This document shows, piece by piece, positions 5,430-38,948 of a DNA stretch of 38,948 bases; within the stretch, counting starts at the first letter, position 1; each line of letters opens with the position of its first letter. Origin of the DNA: Thermoplasmatota archaeon (GTDB lineage: Archaea > Thermoplasmatota > Penumbrarchaeia > Penumbrarchaeales > Penumbrarchaeaceae). The notes under the pieces are model-generated. The model did not search any database. It was given only the letters and a program-made list of their open reading frames with translations, and was not told the DNA's origin. Made by a program: the position numbers and the translations under genes. The stretch covers positions 1-38,948 of the forward strand of contig JARVGK010000013.1 in NCBI GenBank assembly GCA_029762535.1, written 5' to 3'.

Positions 5430-5488
5430 CGATTATAAATCATTTTTTATAGGATTTATTATTTTCCCATCTATTGTCGGTTTTTTAT
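5430..5488. promoter_or_regulatory. AT-rich divergent promoter region
   Basis: TTATAAAT, TTTTTTATA and TTTTTTATAT TATA-like motifs between divergently oriented genes. Confidence 0.5.
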
Positions 5489-5776
5489 ATGTACATCGCA
5501 TTCTTAACGGTGACTCCCATGGACGAGGGGCCGTCCCTATCCGAACATGTGAAAGCGGCCATTCAGGTCATTTCCTCCTCGGGATTGAAATATCAGGTCA
5601 CTGCAATGGGTACGATCATCGAATCTCCGGACCTCCCTTCGCTCTTCAGGGTCGTCCAGGAGGCGGTCCGAGCGGTTCGGGCGAAGGGATCCCAGCGTAT
5701 AAGCGTGTCACTGAGGATCGACTGCCGATACGATGAGGATGCCACCATCGATTCGAAGATGACCTCGGTCATGTGA
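5489..5776 (+). CDS. MTH1187/YkoF-like thiamine-binding protein (UPF0045)
   Basis: About 95 aa with family-typical AFLTVTP...SLSEHVKAAIQVI..SGLKYQVTAMGTIIE...RISVSLRIDCR...IDSKM. Confidence 0.88.
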   Translation: MYIAFLTVTPMDEGPSLSEHVKAAIQVISSSGLKYQVTAMGTIIESPDLPSLFRVVQEAVRAVRAKGSQRISVSLRIDCRYDEDATIDSKMTSVM

Positions 5777-15634: not shown

Positions 15635-15820
15635 GACAACCCCGCGACGATGAGCAAAATTTGATATAGTATCCGCTTCCTATAAAATGCGGGATGTATA
15701 GGGTGTAAGTCCCTATCTTTGCCGTACCTTATCCAGGTACCCCAAAAGTAACCTTTCGTTGGGCCTCCCGTCAGGCCTTCGCCTGTACATCCCACCCCTA
15801 TTAAGGAAGGGAGTGAAAGA

Positions 15821-16765
15821 ATGGATGTCGAGGAGAAGGCCAGGGCCACCCTGGTGAACAGCCTGGGTCTGAAAGGGAGCGAGAGGGCCCTCATACTCTG
15901 CGACATAGGCAGCATCGGGATAGGTGAGGTGTTCTACAAGGCGGCCGTCAGGATGACACGGGACGCCTACATGATGGTGATGCCGAAGGGGAAGCATCAC
16001 GGGGCCGAGCCGCCTCCTCCGGTCACGAGCATGATGATGGACAGCGACGTGATCATCGCACCCACGACCTTTTCACTGACCTATACGAATGCGGCCCGGG
16101 CCTCGCTTGCTGCGGGATCCCGGATCGCCACGATGCCCGGGATCACAAAAGAAATGCTTGAAAGAGGGGGTTTCGAGGCGGATTACTCGAAGATCGCCAG
16201 AAGCATACGAAGGTTCGGCAGGATGTTCTCAACCAGCAAGAGGATCAGGATAACGTCGAAAGAGGGAACGGACCTTCTGCTCCTCATCAAGGGAAGGGAG
16301 TGGATAATGGGAGATAACGGGCTTTGCCTCAAGAGGGGCTCGATAACGAACCTACCCGCAGGGGAGGTTTTCATAGCCCCTGTGGAGAACTCGGCCCGGG
16401 GAACGCTCGTCGTGGACGGGGTATTCTCTCAGGGGCTGGAAACGCCTTTGACGATCCACATCAAAGACGGGGTCATCCAGAGTGTGGACGGGATAAATGA
16501 CGTATCGCAGCTCTTCAGGGGTAAGAAGTGCTCTAGGGTACTTTCGGAGATAGGGATAGGAATGAACCCCCATTCCATGATAATCGGGAACATTCTCGAG
16601 GACCAGAAGGCCCTTGGAACGGTACATATAGGGTTCGGGGACAATTCCACCTTCGGGGGCCGGGTCATATGCGATATGCACAACGATGGGATGCTGCTCC
16701 ATCCCACCTTGGACATTGGCGGTGTCAAGGTCATAGAGGACGGTAAGTTCGTCCTTGATCTGTGA
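15821..16765 (+). CDS. M29-like (thermophilic metalloprotease/aminopeptidase) family protein
   Basis: HGAEPP, TMPGIT, GTDL, NLPAGEVFIAP, EIGIGMNP, KALGTVHIGFGDN and HNDG motifs. Confidence 0.85.
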   Translation: MDVEEKARATLVNSLGLKGSERALILCDIGSIGIGEVFYKAAVRMTRDAYMMVMPKGKHHGAEPPPPVTSMMMDSDVIIAPTTFSLTYTNAARASLAAGSRIATMPGITKEMLERGGFEADYSKIARSIRRFGRMFSTSKRIRITSKEGTDLLLLIKGREWIMGDNGLCLKRGSITNLPAGEVFIAPVENSARGTLVVDGVFSQGLETPLTIHIKDGVIQSVDGINDVSQLFRGKKCSRVLSEIGIGMNPHSMIIGNILEDQKALGTVHIGFGDNSTFGGRVICDMHNDGMLLHPTLDIGGVKVIEDGKFVLDL

Positions 16766-36336: not shown

Positions 36337-37362
36337 TCAAACGTATTTGAGATCGATCCTGCCTTTCTTTATCATTCCTTTTTTGAAGCGCTTTCTGAGA
36401 TCGAAGAGGCCTACCATGTTCTCCTGTAGTTCGGGAAGGTTCTCGAATAAAACCCAGGTCAAGAACATCATCATCAAGAGCGAGAGGACCTTGGCGATGA
36501 TGCTATGCGCGGTATAGAAGTCCAATAGATCCCCATGGACGGCAAGTATCACCCCTACGTTCCTGAATATATTGACCACGAATATCAAAGGTACGACCAT
36601 GAGGAAAGCGCGGATCTTGCGCTCTCCATCGCTCAATCTGATCATATTCAGGAGCCCCCATCTCCTGGACCTCACCAGTAATGATGGGTCTCCCTTGGTC
36701 CTCAGAAGCTCCTTTCTCGCCCAAGGCATCCATTCGTCCCTGTCCGTTTCGGTGGCTATTATGGCCGCTGTGAAGAGGAATAGGGCTAAAGCCGCGGTGC
36801 ATTCGAAGACGATCATGATCATCGTATCGGTGGGATCGGGGGAAGTGATCATCAATCCCTCGCCGATCCTCGAGGGGAATCCCGATTGGAGGAACACTTC
36901 AAAGCCGAATAACCTCAGAACAAAGTATGTCAGGTGGGCCACGATGAATATCATGCCACCTTGGAATGCCGGGACATGCTCGGTGATAAAATAGAAGGCT
37001 CCGGTCAGGGCGCTCATCCTCAGAAGCCACTCGATAGACCTTGTGTTCTCTTCGAACCGATGATCGAGATAAAGCTGGAAGGCTATGAAAAGGAACAGGA
37101 AGCCCCCTAGAGCCGATATGACGCCATTGATGATGTCCGGGTCCCTGCCGAGCAGTATTTCCTGAGCGATGAAAAGCCAGTACAAGCCGAAAAGTATGGA
37201 TCCCGCTGCGCGGAACAAGGGGGTGGACCTGCCGTGCCTGGAGTAGAATATGAGCATGATGACGATCGACGGCAGGAACAGGAAGAGTTCCGGATAGGAG
37301 ACCCCTGTGAGCACATCGGAGCGGCCTATCACGTTCAATAGTGCTTTTATGATCGCCATCAT
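36337..37362 (-). CDS. Archaeosortase (ArtA-like, exosortase/archaeosortase family)
   Basis: Polytopic membrane protein with IVFECTA (catalytic Cys), VNIFRNVGVI (Arg) and FYTAHSIIAK motifs. Confidence 0.85.
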   Translation of the reverse strand: MMAIIKALLNVIGRSDVLTGVSYPELFLFLPSIVIMLIFYSRHGRSTPLFRAAGSILFGLYWLFIAQEILLGRDPDIINGVISALGGFLFLFIAFQLYLDHRFEENTRSIEWLLRMSALTGAFYFITEHVPAFQGGMIFIVAHLTYFVLRLFGFEVFLQSGFPSRIGEGLMITSPDPTDTMIMIVFECTAALALFLFTAAIIATETDRDEWMPWARKELLRTKGDPSLLVRSRRWGLLNMIRLSDGERKIRAFLMVVPLIFVVNIFRNVGVILAVHGDLLDFYTAHSIIAKVLSLLMMMFLTWVLFENLPELQENMVGLFDLRKRFKKGMIKKGRIDLKYV

Positions 37363-37422
37363 CAGCTCCAGGTATATGTCCGTATTTTATTTAATCCCCT
37401 TATAGAGTATTGAGACTCCCGT

Positions 37423-38421
37423 TCATACCTTTGGTGTAAGCGTGGTCTTCCAGAGCAGGCGGTTCATCGCAGCGAAGTAGAGCATCATAAGGACCATGAT
37501 AGCAAAGGCAGGGAGGATCCCTCCGATCGATGGGGCAATTGCGGCTATGAGCGCGAAAGTGGATGCGACCTCCATCAGCGCCATGGTTCGAAGGCATTTT
37601 CCATGGTCATATTCCCTGTCCTTCATCAAATTGAGATCGATCAAAAGCATTAGCCCCGCGAATATCAAAATTGGAATGAAATCCCACCATCGGGCATTCT
37701 GGAATATTAGGGCGGAGATCAGCGCCGCTATCGATATCAGTTTGATAAGGGCGGACATGGCCCTCGCAGGTATGGAGGCTTTGAATTTGGAACCTTTGAC
37801 ATGAACTCCAAGCCTGCCAAGTAGCGAAGCTTCGGACATACAGATATCCTTCAGGTCCCCTTCTATCATTATCTGGTAGATTATCTGCATGACAAGATAG
37901 AATGTCAAGGAGACAACGGTAAAGAGGAGGAGGGCAGGGTCGAATGCACCTCCGGATCCCAAATAGGAGAAAGGAAATAGCAGTGAGTGTGCAATGGCGA
38001 TCGGCAGGAATTTCGCCCCCATTCGCTTTCCGAATATGTTGTAGACGAAACCCATCGCGGTAAGGGTGAGGAGGATGCATAAAGCTAGCGGATCGAAATT
38101 CGAGATGAACGCTCCATACACGAAGGATAGAATGATCAGAGATAGAGTGACCCACCTTGCTGTTTTCGGATGGATGGATCCTATTTGAAGGGGGTGATGG
38201 GATTTATGGGGGTCATCCCTGTCGAATCCTTGAATGTAATCCTCAACGGAATTGTGGCCGTAACCCGCGTTGTGATACAGCCATCCGAAAATGAGAAAGA
38301 GTAATACATTCATATTTAGTATCCCGCCGCACGCGAGTGCGGATCCCGATACGCAAATGGACATCTCGAGTGGGCTGGTGTGGCTTCTAAAGAGTTGCAG
38401 CCAGTCACGGGGAGTTGCCAT
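37423..38421 (-). CDS. UbiA prenyltransferase family protein
   Basis: WLQLFR N-terminus, Asp-rich NSVEDYIQGFDRDDPHKSHHPL loop, YN...KR, second motif EGDLKD and about 8-9 TMs. Confidence 0.85.
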   Translation of the reverse strand: MATPRDWLQLFRSHTSPLEMSICVSGSALACGGILNMNVLLFLIFGWLYHNAGYGHNSVEDYIQGFDRDDPHKSHHPLQIGSIHPKTARWVTLSLIILSFVYGAFISNFDPLALCILLTLTAMGFVYNIFGKRMGAKFLPIAIAHSLLFPFSYLGSGGAFDPALLLFTVVSLTFYLVMQIIYQIMIEGDLKDICMSEASLLGRLGVHVKGSKFKASIPARAMSALIKLISIAALISALIFQNARWWDFIPILIFAGLMLLIDLNLMKDREYDHGKCLRTMALMEVASTFALIAAIAPSIGGILPAFAIMVLMMLYFAAMNRLLWKTTLTPKV

Positions 38422-38489
38422 ATGTTTCGGTTATCGGATGAATTATTATCTATATCCCATTTGCTGAAGGAACGAGATCGATATTGATC

Positions 38490-38948
38490 GAGTAGGCCCG
38501 CCCGGACCGATTAAAAATCCTTCGGATTTTCAAAGTCTATGTACTCTAATTAAATACTCGGGCGGATCCCACTCTATAAATTCACATTAATGATGATCGA
38601 GTGGGCCCGCCCGGATCCTTGAAAAATTGCTAAGGCAATTTTCCATACCAACAATGAGAATATGCTTGAAACGTGCGGGCTCACTCTTCTTAGTAAGGAA
38701 TAAATGTTACGAGTGGGCCCGCCCGGACCGATTAAAAATCCTTCGGATTTTCAAAGTCAACGTACTCTAATCAAATACTCGGGCGGATCCCACTCAATAA
38801 ATACACACGAATGATAATCGAGTGGGCCCGCCCGGATCCTTGAAAAATTGCTGACCCAATTTTCCATACCAACAATGAGAATATGCTTGAAACGTGCGGG
38901 CTCACTCTTCTTAGTAAGGAATAAATGTTACGAGTGGGCCCGCCCGGA
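38490..38948. repeat. Array of alternating palindromic units (A 85 nt, B 88 nt) with 24-nt linkers; 221-bp period; truncated by the window end
   Basis: Core GAGT(G/A)GGCCCGCCCGGA at 38490, 38599, 38711, 38820 and 38932 (spacing 109/112/109/112). Each complete unit ends in an imperfect inverted copy of the core. Confidence 0.95.

What the first reader, a model, noticed from the sequence alone, without database searches (positions are those of the whole stretch)
38490..38948. Non-coding array of alternating hairpin units with a fixed 24-nt linker: candidate undescribed ncRNA or recombination-site array
Seen: units are A1 38490-38574, B1 38599-38686, A2 38711-38795, B2 38820-38907, and a fifth core starts at 38932. 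Every unit begins GAGTGGGCCCGCCCGGA (A1 has one G>A). Each ends in an imperfect reverse complement (A: CGGGCGGATCCCACTC; B: CGTGCGGGCTCACTC), so it folds into a ~15-bp GC-rich closing stem around an AT-rich interior. A and B interiors differ in sequence but share one architecture, and all four linkers are exactly 24 nt although the A and B linkers differ in sequence. Inference: keeping structure and spacing while sequence differs suggests selection on a geometry read by a protein. Candidates are an RNA processed into unit-length pieces, or ssDNA hairpin recombination or nicking sites analogous to attC or REP/BIME. It is not CRISPR, and no associated enzyme is visible in the window; one may lie beyond the right edge.
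Basis: partly seen in the sequence, partly recalled or inferred. Interest (0 to 1): 0.85.

Follow-up and report, generated by a model that had tools for sequence, protein, structure and literature searches.

The report
Hairpin repeat array trailing a tRNA
The array is real, but it is the tail of a tRNA gene: gene-less fold-back DNA units, each ending in a copy of the tRNA's last 14 bases, of a kind found behind about half the tRNA genes of this archaeon and in its relatives; it resembles E. coli's unexplained 'tRNA-linked repeats'.

Summary
In detail: a 221-nt period (A 109 nt plus B 112 nt), 2.1 copies at 95% identity, 24-nt linkers, and closed hairpins.

The reading changes once the minus strand is read. 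The 17-nt 'core' is the reverse complement of a tRNA 3' end (positions 60-73 plus the trailer CTC). The same A/B array follows tRNA-Pro(CGG) on contig C44 and tRNA-Val(CAC) at the end of C58. The window stops at a 78-N scaffold gap, not at a contig end.

In tRNA sense, each unit is:
- a trailer;
- a 24-nt AT-rich loop;
- an antisense copy of the tRNA end (R');
- an interior with an A-run/hairpin/T-run module;
- a sense copy of the tRNA end (R).

R' is matched to whichever tRNA it sits beside. About 21 of 40 tRNA genes in this genome carry such 3' arrays. Related genera carry different units of the same build, and the 23-25-nt loop is kept.

I found no match in Rfam, no strand bias in folding genome-wide, and no linked enzyme.

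Best reading: DNA-level cassettes that recombine at the tRNA-end core. They are an archaeal analogue of E. coli tRNA-linked repeats, with an attC-like fold. The mechanism is inferred, not shown.

Earlier notes of this scan describe the same system on other pieces of this genome.

The parts
38931..38948 (-). R copy 5: an 18-nt direct repeat, made of the last 14 nt of a tRNA (positions 60-73) plus the trailer CTCG. [quoted passage not shown]
   Evidence: The sequence is identical to the 3' ends of tRNA-Val(CAC) at C58:115554 and tRNA-Pro(CGG) at C44:111.
38908..38930 (-). B-type AT-rich linker. It forms the loop between R plus CTC and GAG plus R'.
   Evidence: the loop is 24 nt after pairing.
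38820..38907 (-). Unit B2. In tRNA sense it reads R' arm (38893-38907), interior with an A-run/hairpin/T-run module (38842-38864), then R (38820-38836).
   Evidence: -32.0 kcal/mol in sense and -29.4 kcal/mol in antisense; covariance model R1 hit at E 1e-07.
38796..38819 (-). A-type linker/loop, 24 nt. In tRNA sense it ends in a TATA-like TTTATT.
38711..38795 (-). Unit A2: R' arm (38780-38795, with an AT bulge), two inner hairpins including the module at 38734-38751, and R (38711-38727).
   Evidence: -43.0 kcal/mol in tRNA sense (z -6.2) against -31.3 kcal/mol in antisense. It is 100% identical to C44:264-348.
38687..38710 (-). B-type linker/loop, 24 nt.
38599..38686 (-). Unit B1. The terminator-like hairpin lies at 38621-38643.
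   Evidence: It is 97.7% identical to the C44 B units, and its first 36 nt are identical to the end of C58.
38575..38598 (-). A-type linker/loop, 24 nt. In tRNA sense it ends in an exact TTTATA.
38490..38574 (-). Unit A1, the unit furthest from the tRNA. It is 95% identical to A2, and its R copy carries a substitution (CCTACTC).
38422..38489 (-). Spacer between the array and the start codon of the next gene. It holds the conserved promoter-like motif (GCAAATGG.ATATA) that relatives also have in front of this gene.
37423..38421 (-). UbiA-family prenyltransferase gene (332 aa), downstream of the array on the tRNA-sense strand. It is a neighbour, not part of the system.
   Evidence: PF01040, E 4e-17.

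Best explanation
What it is. The array is the 3' tail of a tRNA gene. It is a stack of gene-less, fold-back DNA cassettes: archaeal 'tRNA-linked repeats'.

Unit build, read on the minus strand (tRNA sense):
- a 3-nt trailer (CTC);
- a 24-nt AT-rich loop;
- an antisense copy (R') of tRNA positions 60-73 that also pairs with the trailer;
- about 50 nt of interior, holding a generic A-run/hairpin/T-run module;
- a sense copy (R) of the tRNA's last 14 nt.

Shown here:
- the link to tRNA genes;
- the exact boundaries of R;
- the matching of R' to the local tRNA;
- the conserved loop of about 24 nt;
- the spread of one unit family over several tRNA genes;
- fast turnover between genera.

Inferred mechanism. 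The units are DNA-level cassettes that are added, lost and copied between tRNA genes by recombination inside the 14-nt core R. The tRNA gene would act as the primary site, and the R'/R fold-back as an attC-like secondary site. In circular form, a unit would be a dumbbell with one stem and two loops. New units would enter next to the tRNA and push older ones outward. The A-B-A-B order would come from duplication of a two-unit block by recombination between R copies. The enzyme is not identified.
For: 1. tRNA link.
- The core is the reverse complement of a tRNA 3' end.
- The same array follows tRNA-Pro(CGG) on C44 (97% identity over 373 nt) and tRNA-Val(CAC) at the end of C58.

2. Genome-wide pattern.
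- 20-21 of 40 tRNA genes have 1-5 extra copies of their last 14 nt within 1.5 kb downstream, at regular spacing. Chance expectation is about 0.01 per gene.

3. Boundaries of R.
- The right edge of R is always the discriminator base.
- The left edge depends on unit class: position 60 or T55 in the T-loop. This is the pattern expected for recombination sites inside tRNA genes.

4. R' follows the local tRNA.
- The middle of R reads GCGG, GTCG, GTTG or AACG depending on the tRNA, and R' changes to match it.

5. Transfer between loci.
- The tRNA-proximal unit behind tRNA-Val(GAC) copies the tRNA-Val(UAC) unit.
- Its R' still matches tRNA-Val(UAC), but both flanking R copies are local.
- The older, locally adapted unit lies further from the tRNA.

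6. Decay away from the tRNA.
- Distal copies are degenerate or truncated: the R copy of A1, the last unit on C44, and the unit behind tRNA-Ile.

7. Relatives.
- Orthologous tRNA-Val loci in other genera and families carry unrelated units of the same build.
- A covariance model built from A-type units finds B units, and 104-nt units behind tRNAs in three more genera.

8. Pairing partner of R'.
- The extension of R' pairs with the trailer of the preceding R in 9 of 16 units, with the following R in 2, and ties in 5.
- The loop is 23-25 nt in 15 of 16 units.

9. No strand bias.
- 33 non-redundant units fold equally well on both strands, with mean z -4.6 on each. This fits DNA palindromes better than one-strand RNA selection.

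10. No match in Rfam.
Against: - No recombinase is linked to the arrays.
  - The genome shows only two tyrosine-recombinase hits: one full-length, and one fragment beside tRNA-Arg(TCT).
  - It has one IS110 transposase, no Y1 HUH transposase and no TnpB.
  - IS110 and Cas1 are patchy among relatives that carry arrays.
- More than 20 different tRNA ends are used, which would need an enzyme that reads shape rather than sequence.
- A 109-nt double-stranded circle is too small to bend, so a single-stranded or multimeric intermediate has to be assumed.
- A simple single crossover does not give two local R copies around a foreign R'. It needs heteroduplex repair or gene conversion.
- Unit A folds 12-16 kcal/mol better in tRNA sense, through G-U pairs. 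That hints at RNA-level selection for this one family.
- No excised circles, empty sites in the same species, or transcripts could be examined.
- For the window copy, the tRNA itself lies in the gap.
Confidence: 0.55

Rival explanations
1. Transcribed and processed RNA. The units are read through from the tRNA promoter, or from TATA-like boxes in the linkers. The R'/R stem copies the tRNA 'top half' (acceptor plus T stem). RNase P and tRNase Z would then cut out unit-length hairpin RNAs, or trailer RNAs carrying 15 nt antisense to the tRNA 3' end. These would act in tRNA maturation or as regulators. E. coli offers a partial precedent: three rRNA-operon TLRs (rrA/rrB/rrF) are transcribed and processed.
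For: - R' equals the acceptor 5' strand joined to the T-stem 5' strand, so the stem mimics a tRNA minihelix (sequence).
- Unit A and its four relatives all fold better in tRNA sense, by 2-16 kcal/mol, using G-U pairs.
- A-type linkers end in TTTATA or TTTATT, like the tRNA promoters of this genome.
- The window array has no T5 run directly after R, so read-through from the tRNA is plausible.
- Some E. coli TLRs are transcribed, processed and bound by Hfq and CsrA (PMC8144298).
Against: - There is no strand asymmetry across 33 unit types.
- The discriminator and trailer are paired in the stem, unlike a processing substrate.
- Most other tRNAs have T-runs at the start of the loop, which would stop transcription before R'.
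- Unit content is not conserved at orthologous tRNAs, even within a genus.
- Truncated and 'foreign-R'' units exist.
- No Rfam family matches.
Confidence: 0.25
2. Miniature transposon with target-site duplication. Each unit is inserted at the tRNA end by an integrase that makes staggered cuts. This duplicates the 14-nt core each time, next to the tRNA as 'leader', as casposases and Cas1-Cas2 do. The array would then be a CRISPR-like record that grows at the tRNA end.
For: - Class I units have a fixed 14-nt repeat in at least five genera.
- Both R copies around the transferred unit on C18 are local, while its R' is foreign. The new unit is proximal and the decayed units are distal.
- The Aciduliprofundum boonei casposase inserts at the 3' end of tRNA-Pro with a 15-bp duplication, using the T-loop region as leader (PMC5137440).
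Against: - Other unit classes have 19-nt cores, and the 5' arrays have longer ones.
- Terminal inverted repeats are at most 4-5 nt.
- The only Cas1 here is a Cas4-Cas1 fusion of CRISPR type.
- Cas1 is absent from most relatives that carry arrays, including genomes 94-97% complete.
- The last R is often followed by the same sequence as the tRNA, which fits block duplication better.
Confidence: 0.08
3. No mobility at all. Local tandem duplication and replication slippage at highly transcribed tRNA genes would make the arrays. The antisense arm would be made and corrected by template switching at quasi-palindromes.
For: - A-B-A-B arrays are plain block duplications.
- Partial units after the last R repeat the tRNA's own trailer for 17-49 nt.
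- No enzyme was found.
Against: - The same unit families sit behind different tRNA genes on different contigs, with only the core exchanged. Examples are the A/B units at Val(CAC) and Pro(CGG), the C34 unit at C18, and shared junction motifs at Gly, Glu, Leu and Ala.
- The loop length is conserved across genera.
Confidence: 0.08
4. One reading: integron attC sites or REP/BIME elements handled by IntI or a RAYT transposase.
For: The units are imperfect palindromes of 85-104 nt with a bulge and a variable loop, arranged in arrays, like attC sites.
Against: - The cores are tRNA-specific. There is no GTTRRRY or RYYYAAC motif.
- The '24-nt cassettes' hold no ORF.
- No integron integrase lies nearby.
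- No Y1 HUH gene is present.
- The copies lie only beside tRNA genes.
Confidence: 0.03
5. Assembly artefact at a gap.
For: The array abuts a run of N. Three contigs break inside it.
Against: Three independently assembled copies agree, and they differ by point changes between copies. The same architecture occurs in other genomes.
Confidence: 0.01

Closest known systems
E. coli tRNA-linked repeats (TLRs: tyrT/tyrV 178-bp repeats, RtT, rrA/rrB/rrF; Egan & Landy 1978, Rudd 1999, as cited in PMC8144298)
   Same: - Gene-less repeats lie directly behind tRNA (or rRNA) genes, with 1-5 per locus at many loci.
- Each ends in a copy of the last 18-19 bp of the upstream gene. Here the copy is 14 nt of tRNA plus 4 nt of trailer, 18 nt in all.
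- The function is unknown.
   Different: - There is no sequence or Rfam similarity.
- The archaeal units also carry an antisense copy matched to the local tRNA, a constant 24-nt loop and modular hairpins.
- They occupy about half of all tRNA genes and also occur on the 5' side.
- They turn over between genera.
Integron attC sites and cassette arrays
   Same: - The fold-back is an imperfect palindrome of similar length, with a bulged base and a variable terminal loop.
- The arrays share a short core at each junction.
- Growth would be polar, with new units entering next to a primary site.
   Different: - The core is the tRNA end, not GTTRRRY.
- There is no IntI gene and there are no cassette ORFs.
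- The primary site would be a tRNA gene.
Elements integrating into tRNA genes (tyrosine-integrase islands, tycheposons, archaeal SSV/pTN3-type elements; Williams 2002 sublocation classes)
   Same: - The direct repeat runs from the T-loop or T-stem to the exact 3' end of the tRNA.
- Tandem insertions are separated by partial tRNA copies.
- The newest element lies next to the tRNA (10.1101/2020.12.28.424599; PMC9897764).
   Different: - The units are about 95 bp, with no integrase or any other gene.
- They have a uniform folded build with an antisense arm.
- More than 20 tRNA species are used in one genome.
Casposon insertion at tRNA-Pro in Aciduliprofundum boonei (PMC5137440)
   Same: - The host is also in Thermoplasmatota.
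- The target is the 3' end of tRNA-Pro.
- The duplication is 14-15 bp.
- The T-loop region serves as 'leader'.
   Different: - The casposon duplication overlaps the tRNA by only 5 bp.
- Casposons are kilobase-sized, with long inverted ends and a casposase. None of these is seen here.
Palindrome about 10 bp behind half of the tRNA genes of Methanopyrus kandleri (PMC5217627)
   Same: It is an unexplained palindromic signal behind many archaeal tRNA genes.
   Different: It is a fixed 5+9+5 motif, not tRNA-derived, and it does not form arrays.

Membership tests
E. coli-type tRNA-linked repeats (TLR) | Lies immediately downstream of a tRNA/rRNA gene on the same strand | tested here: met
   The sister copies follow tRNA-Pro(CGG) on C44 and tRNA-Val(CAC) on C58. 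For the window copy, the tRNA lies in the 78-N gap.
E. coli-type tRNA-linked repeats (TLR) | Each repeat ends in about 18-19 bp identical to the 3' end of the upstream gene | tested here: met
   The 18-nt repeat is 14 nt of tRNA (positions 60-73) plus CTCG.
E. coli-type tRNA-linked repeats (TLR) | One to five tandem copies at several loci of a genome | tested here: met
   20-21 of 40 tRNA genes carry 1-5 copies each.
E. coli-type tRNA-linked repeats (TLR) | Homology to RtT (Rfam RF00391) or other E. coli TLR sequences | tested here: not met
   No Rfam match at E up to 10. This is an analogue, not a homologue.
Integron attC / cassette array | Imperfect palindrome that folds with extrahelical bases and a variable loop | tested here: met
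   a recurrent mismatch or bulge at position 8 of the 5' arm.
Integron attC / cassette array | Conserved core sites RYYYAAC ... GTTRRRY | tested here: not met
   The cores are tRNA-end sequences that differ from one tRNA to the next.
Integron attC / cassette array | Adjacent intI, attI and promoter; cassettes usually hold an ORF | tested here: not met
   No tyrosine recombinase lies in the window, and the genome has two hits elsewhere. The space between fold-backs is 24 nt.
REP/BIME with RAYT | Short palindromes dispersed through many intergenic regions | tested here: not met
   The core and the units occur only beside tRNA genes.
REP/BIME with RAYT | Y1 HUH (RAYT) transposase in the genome | tested here: not met
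   PF01797 was not found in a genome that is 93% complete.
CRISPR array | Identical repeats of 23-50 bp separated by unique spacers; cas genes or a leader nearby | tested here: not met
   The repeat is 18 nt, and the 'spacers' are two alternating sequences of 91 and 94 nt. The only Cas1, a Cas4-Cas1 fusion, lies on another contig.
tRNA-integrating genetic element (integrase island) | Direct repeats that end at the tRNA 3' end and start in the T-loop or 3' part | tested here: met
   the right edge is the discriminator, and the left edge is position 60 or T55.
tRNA-integrating genetic element (integrase island) | Integrase gene and cargo between the repeats | tested here: not met
   The units are 91-94 bp between cores, with no ORF.
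Casposon / casposon-derived mini-element | Target-site duplication of fixed 14-15 bp | tested here: inconclusive
   The core is 14 nt in class I units but 19 nt in another class.
Casposon / casposon-derived mini-element | Terminal inverted repeats and a casposase (Cas1-solo with PolB) | tested here: not met
   The unit ends share at most 4-5 nt. The Cas1 is a Cas4-Cas1 fusion, and Cas1 is patchy in relatives.
tRNA gene or tRNA pseudogene | Cloverleaf detectable by a tRNA finder | tested here: not met
   ARAGORN finds no tRNA in the window. The units hold only the 3' 14 nt and their complement.

The most novel reading that the evidence does not exclude
These may be protein-less, integron-like cassettes of a new kind. 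In this reading the tRNA 3' end serves as the primary site. Each unit's fold-back, matched to that tRNA and with a loop of fixed size, serves as a structure-read secondary site. A host-encoded or still unrecognised recombinase would insert single-stranded dumbbell circles next to the tRNA. That would be a new site-specific recombination system in archaea whose target choice is set by a short antisense arm carried by the element itself.
Probability: 0.15. Interest if true: 0.85.

Novelty: new variant of a known kind. Interest (0 to 1): 0.62.

Why it matters
- tRNA-linked repeats have been known in E. coli since 1978, and most still have no function or origin. This lineage-wide archaeal version is richer: an antisense arm re-tailored to each tRNA, a constant 24-nt loop and modular hairpins. 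It gives many independent examples for working out how such repeats arise.
- If a recombinase reads the fold-back, it would be a compact system that targets tRNA ends.
- If the units are transcribed, they are a new class of tRNA-trailer RNAs.
- In practice, these arrays break assemblies and hide tRNA genes in metagenome-assembled genomes. They can also mark synteny breakpoints.

Tried and rejected
- Rfam at E up to 10 over 37000-38948, and across the gap: only chance hits.
- ARAGORN on the window: no tRNA.
- BLAST-level search of the A/B sequence in 40 relatives: nothing convincing outside this genome.
- Exact-pattern scans of the metagenome and genome collections with a unit-A interior: no hit.
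- A loose R-N(22-26)-R' pattern over all genomes. Most hits were chance matches in GC-rich bacteria. One was useful: a Thermoplasmatota MAG with an intron-containing tRNA-Pro followed by the same R-24-R' structure.
- IS110 'bridge RNA' idea. The genome has one IS110 gene, but none was found in several array-bearing relatives at 90-96% completeness. Rejected.
- IS200/IS605 or RAYT and TnpB: not present.
- Casposase idea. The Cas1 is a Cas4-Cas1 fusion and is patchy in relatives. Kept only as a low-probability rival.
- Strand-asymmetry test for RNA selection: null overall.
- Wobble-pair count in R'/R stems: 16 sense-type against 9 antisense-type. The sample is too small and the units are not independent.
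- Split or permuted tRNA and BHB-motif readings: the stem has no bulge-helix-bulge, and the interiors have no D or anticodon arm (read from the sequence).
- Synteny, to identify the tRNA hidden in the gap: relatives have no tRNA in front of the UbiA gene, so this did not help.

Full report
**Observation.** The sequence is as described. The 18-nt core recurs five times at spacings of 109/112/109/112 nt, and the first copy carries the G>A change. TRF gives a 221-nt period, 2.1 copies, 94% matches and a score of 836. The four units lie at the stated coordinates, and all four linkers are 24 nt. Each unit folds into a closed hairpin with a 14-15-bp GC-rich stem, with z-scores from -2.8 to -7.3 against dinucleotide shuffles. 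Only ORFs of 58 aa or less overlap the array.

**What the core is.** A whole-genome search shows that the window is C7:1-38948 and that it ends at a run of 78 N inside a scaffold, not at a contig end. The core also occurs at the start of contig C44 and at the end of C58. There it is the reverse complement of the last 14 nt of tRNA-Pro(CGG) and tRNA-Val(CAC) (T60, T-stem 3' strand, acceptor 3' strand, discriminator) plus the trailer CTC.

- On C44 the tRNA is followed by B-A-B and a truncated A, 97% identical to the window array over 373 nt.
- On C58 the tRNA is followed by the B linker and the first 36 nt of unit B, and then the contig ends. Its linker variant matches the window's, not the C44 variant.

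The array should therefore be read on the minus strand, as the tail of a tRNA gene.

Beyond the gap, C7:39027-39136 (minus strand) is a promoter-plus-hairpin module. It resembles the modules stacked in front of tRNA-Pro(GGG) and the one at the end of C46. The gap therefore probably hides a tRNA, and no tRNA-Pro(UGG) is found in the assembly. A scaffold misjoin with C58 cannot be excluded.

**Anatomy in tRNA sense.** Each unit consists of:
- the trailer CTC;
- a 24-nt AT-rich stretch;
- GAG plus an antisense copy R' of the tRNA end;
- about 50 nt of interior;
- a sense copy R.

It can also pair with the R that precedes it, which gives a hairpin whose loop is the 24-nt 'linker'. The interiors hold an A-run/short-hairpin/T-run module. 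The same module occurs in units behind tRNA-Val(UAC), Val(GAC), Arg(GCG) and Arg(UCG), and in hairpin clusters away from tRNAs. I read it as a generic terminator-like element.

**Genome-wide.** Of the 40 tRNA genes that ARAGORN finds, 20-21 have 1-5 further copies of their last 14 nt (at most 2 mismatches) within 1.5 kb downstream, regularly spaced at 80-250 nt. Nine have copies of their first 14 nt upstream. Chance expectation is about 0.01 per gene.

- The right edge of the repeated segment is always the discriminator.
- The left edge is class-specific: position 60 (14 nt; the window's class) or T55 in the T-loop (19 nt).
- Alternation of two unit types, as in A-B-A-B here, is also seen behind tRNA-Glu. 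It is a duplicated two-unit block.
- Directly behind 11-12 of 37 tRNAs lies an inverted copy of the tRNA's own end, with a loop of 20-25 nt. Stems of 9 bp or more occur in 6 of 37 tRNAs, against 0.2% in mismatched controls.

**R' follows the local tRNA.** The centre of R reads GCGG in Val(CAC)/Pro, GTCG in Val(UAC), GTTG in Ile and AACG in Val(GAC), and R' changes to match. One case is telling. The tRNA-proximal unit behind Val(GAC) on C18 has the same interior and the same R' as the Val(UAC) unit on C34, and its linker differs at two positions. Its R' still matches Val(UAC), while both flanking R copies are local. The second, distal unit has an R' adapted to Val(GAC). This shows that units pass between tRNA genes. 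It also suggests that new units enter next to the tRNA. Distal copies are degenerate: the R of A1, the last unit on C44, and the truncated unit behind tRNA-Ile.

**Relatives.** G000 is the only genome of its genus that was searched, and BLAST does not find the A/B sequence elsewhere. Even so, orthologous tRNA-Val loci carry other units of the same build. These occur in at least four other genera of the family, in a second family of the order, and in two further families of the class. So does an intron-containing tRNA-Pro in a Thermoplasmatota MAG.

A covariance model built from five A-type units also scores the B units. It finds 85-105-nt units in three more genera, most of them directly behind tRNA genes.

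In 16 such units from 6 genomes, the 3-6-nt extension of R' pairs with the trailer of the preceding R in 9, with that of the following R in 2, and ties in 5. The remaining loop is 23-25 nt in 15 of 16. The natural unit is trailer + loop + R' + interior + R. As a circle this would be a dumbbell with one stem and two loops.

**RNA or DNA?** Unit A and its relatives fold 2-16 kcal/mol better in tRNA sense, through G-U pairs. Over 33 non-redundant units, however, the two strands fold equally well: mean z is -4.6 on each, and the sense strand is better in 15 of 33. Many loops in other arrays begin with T-runs that would stop transcription before R'. Unit content is not conserved at orthologous tRNAs. 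Rfam has no match. These points favour a DNA-level origin. Transcription and processing are not excluded. The R'/R stem copies the tRNA acceptor/T-stem stack, and A-type linkers end in TTTATA, like this genome's tRNA promoters.

**Enzymes.**
- The genome has one full-length tyrosine recombinase, and a fragment beside tRNA-Arg(TCT).
- It has one IS110 transposase, no Y1 HUH transposase and no TnpB.
- It has a Cas4-Cas1 fusion of CRISPR type.
- IS110 and Cas1 are missing from several array-bearing relatives that are 90-97% complete.

No agent is identified.

**Comparison with the known.**
- The closest described thing is the E. coli tRNA-linked repeat family. It has 22 repeats at ten loci, each ending in 18-19 bp of the upstream tRNA or rRNA, and most have no known function (PMC8144298). 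The defining layout is met and sequence homology is not, so this is an analogue.
- The boundaries of R are those expected for integrase sites in tRNA genes. The proximal-new, distal-old order recalls tandem integrations such as tycheposons. The units, however, are about 95 bp and gene-less.
- The fold-back resembles attC in shape but fails the attC core, IntI and ORF criteria.
- REP/RAYT and CRISPR fail outright.
- The casposon of A. boonei targets tRNA-Pro with a 15-bp duplication. This is a suggestive parallel, but inverted ends and a casposase are lacking.
- I found no paper describing this archaeal system.
- Earlier notes of this scan describe the same system on other pieces of this genome. 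My census, boundary analysis and relatives' loci reproduce their main claims independently.

**Verdict.** The feature is one array of a lineage-wide system of tRNA-linked fold-back cassettes. It most likely operates at the DNA level, and the enzyme is unknown.

Noticed in passing
L013:2038-2147 (= G000:C7:39027-39136, just beyond the gap, minus strand): This is a promoter-plus-hairpin module. It is 97% identical to the end of contig C46, and it shares 24 nt with two modules in front of tRNA-Pro(GGG) on C14. It looks like a 5'-side tRNA-linked repeat, so both flanks of the hidden tRNA would be repetitive, which would explain the gap.
   Followed up: partly
window 38422-38489 and 37423-38421: The UbiA-family gene next to the array has no tRNA or array in front of it in any of 13 relatives. 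They share only the promoter-like motif about 45 nt before the start codon. The array therefore marks a synteny breakpoint in this genome, or a scaffold misjoin.
   Followed up: partly
L011:1503-1577 and 1400-1500 (G000:C7:41707-41781 and its flank): tRNA-Ile(GAU) is followed by R, a 24-nt loop, a matched R' and a truncated interior, with no second R. A copy of its 3' end plus trailer (GGCCCACTCGA) also lies about 20 nt upstream of the gene.
   Followed up: partly
L011:295-1115 (G000:C7:40499-41319): The ORF has tandem lysine-rich repeats containing KRGRKP (AT-hook-like) and a C-terminal part that looks like a winged helix. It is interrupted by a second N gap. A protein that binds AT-rich DNA so close to tRNA arrays may be worth a look.
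   Followed up: no
G000 contigs C31 (about 5460-5740 and 15670-15950), C61:1-330, C4 (about 83650-83930), C25:48630-48910: These are clusters of short hairpins of the form GAAAAT-stem-loop-stem-ATTTTC, away from any predicted tRNA. The same module forms the inner hairpin of units A and B. It is probably a genome-wide terminator-like or protein-binding element.
   Followed up: no
G000:C53:7237-8068: tRNA-Arg(TCT) is followed within 500 nt by a tyrosine-recombinase fragment at the contig end. This is a conventional integrated element in a tRNA gene, in the same genome.
   Followed up: no
L053:820-2487 (G000:C5:61003-62670): This is a Cas4-Cas1 fusion gene (555 aa), about 14 kb from tRNA-Arg(GCG). 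Similar long Cas1 ORFs occur in two relatives.
   Followed up: partly
L099:2868-3330 (MAG Thermoplasmatota archaeon PL23a_bin.42): An intron-containing tRNA-Pro, missed by ARAGORN, is followed by two units with the same R-24-R' geometry. This shows that tRNA finders under-count the anchors of these arrays.
   Followed up: partly
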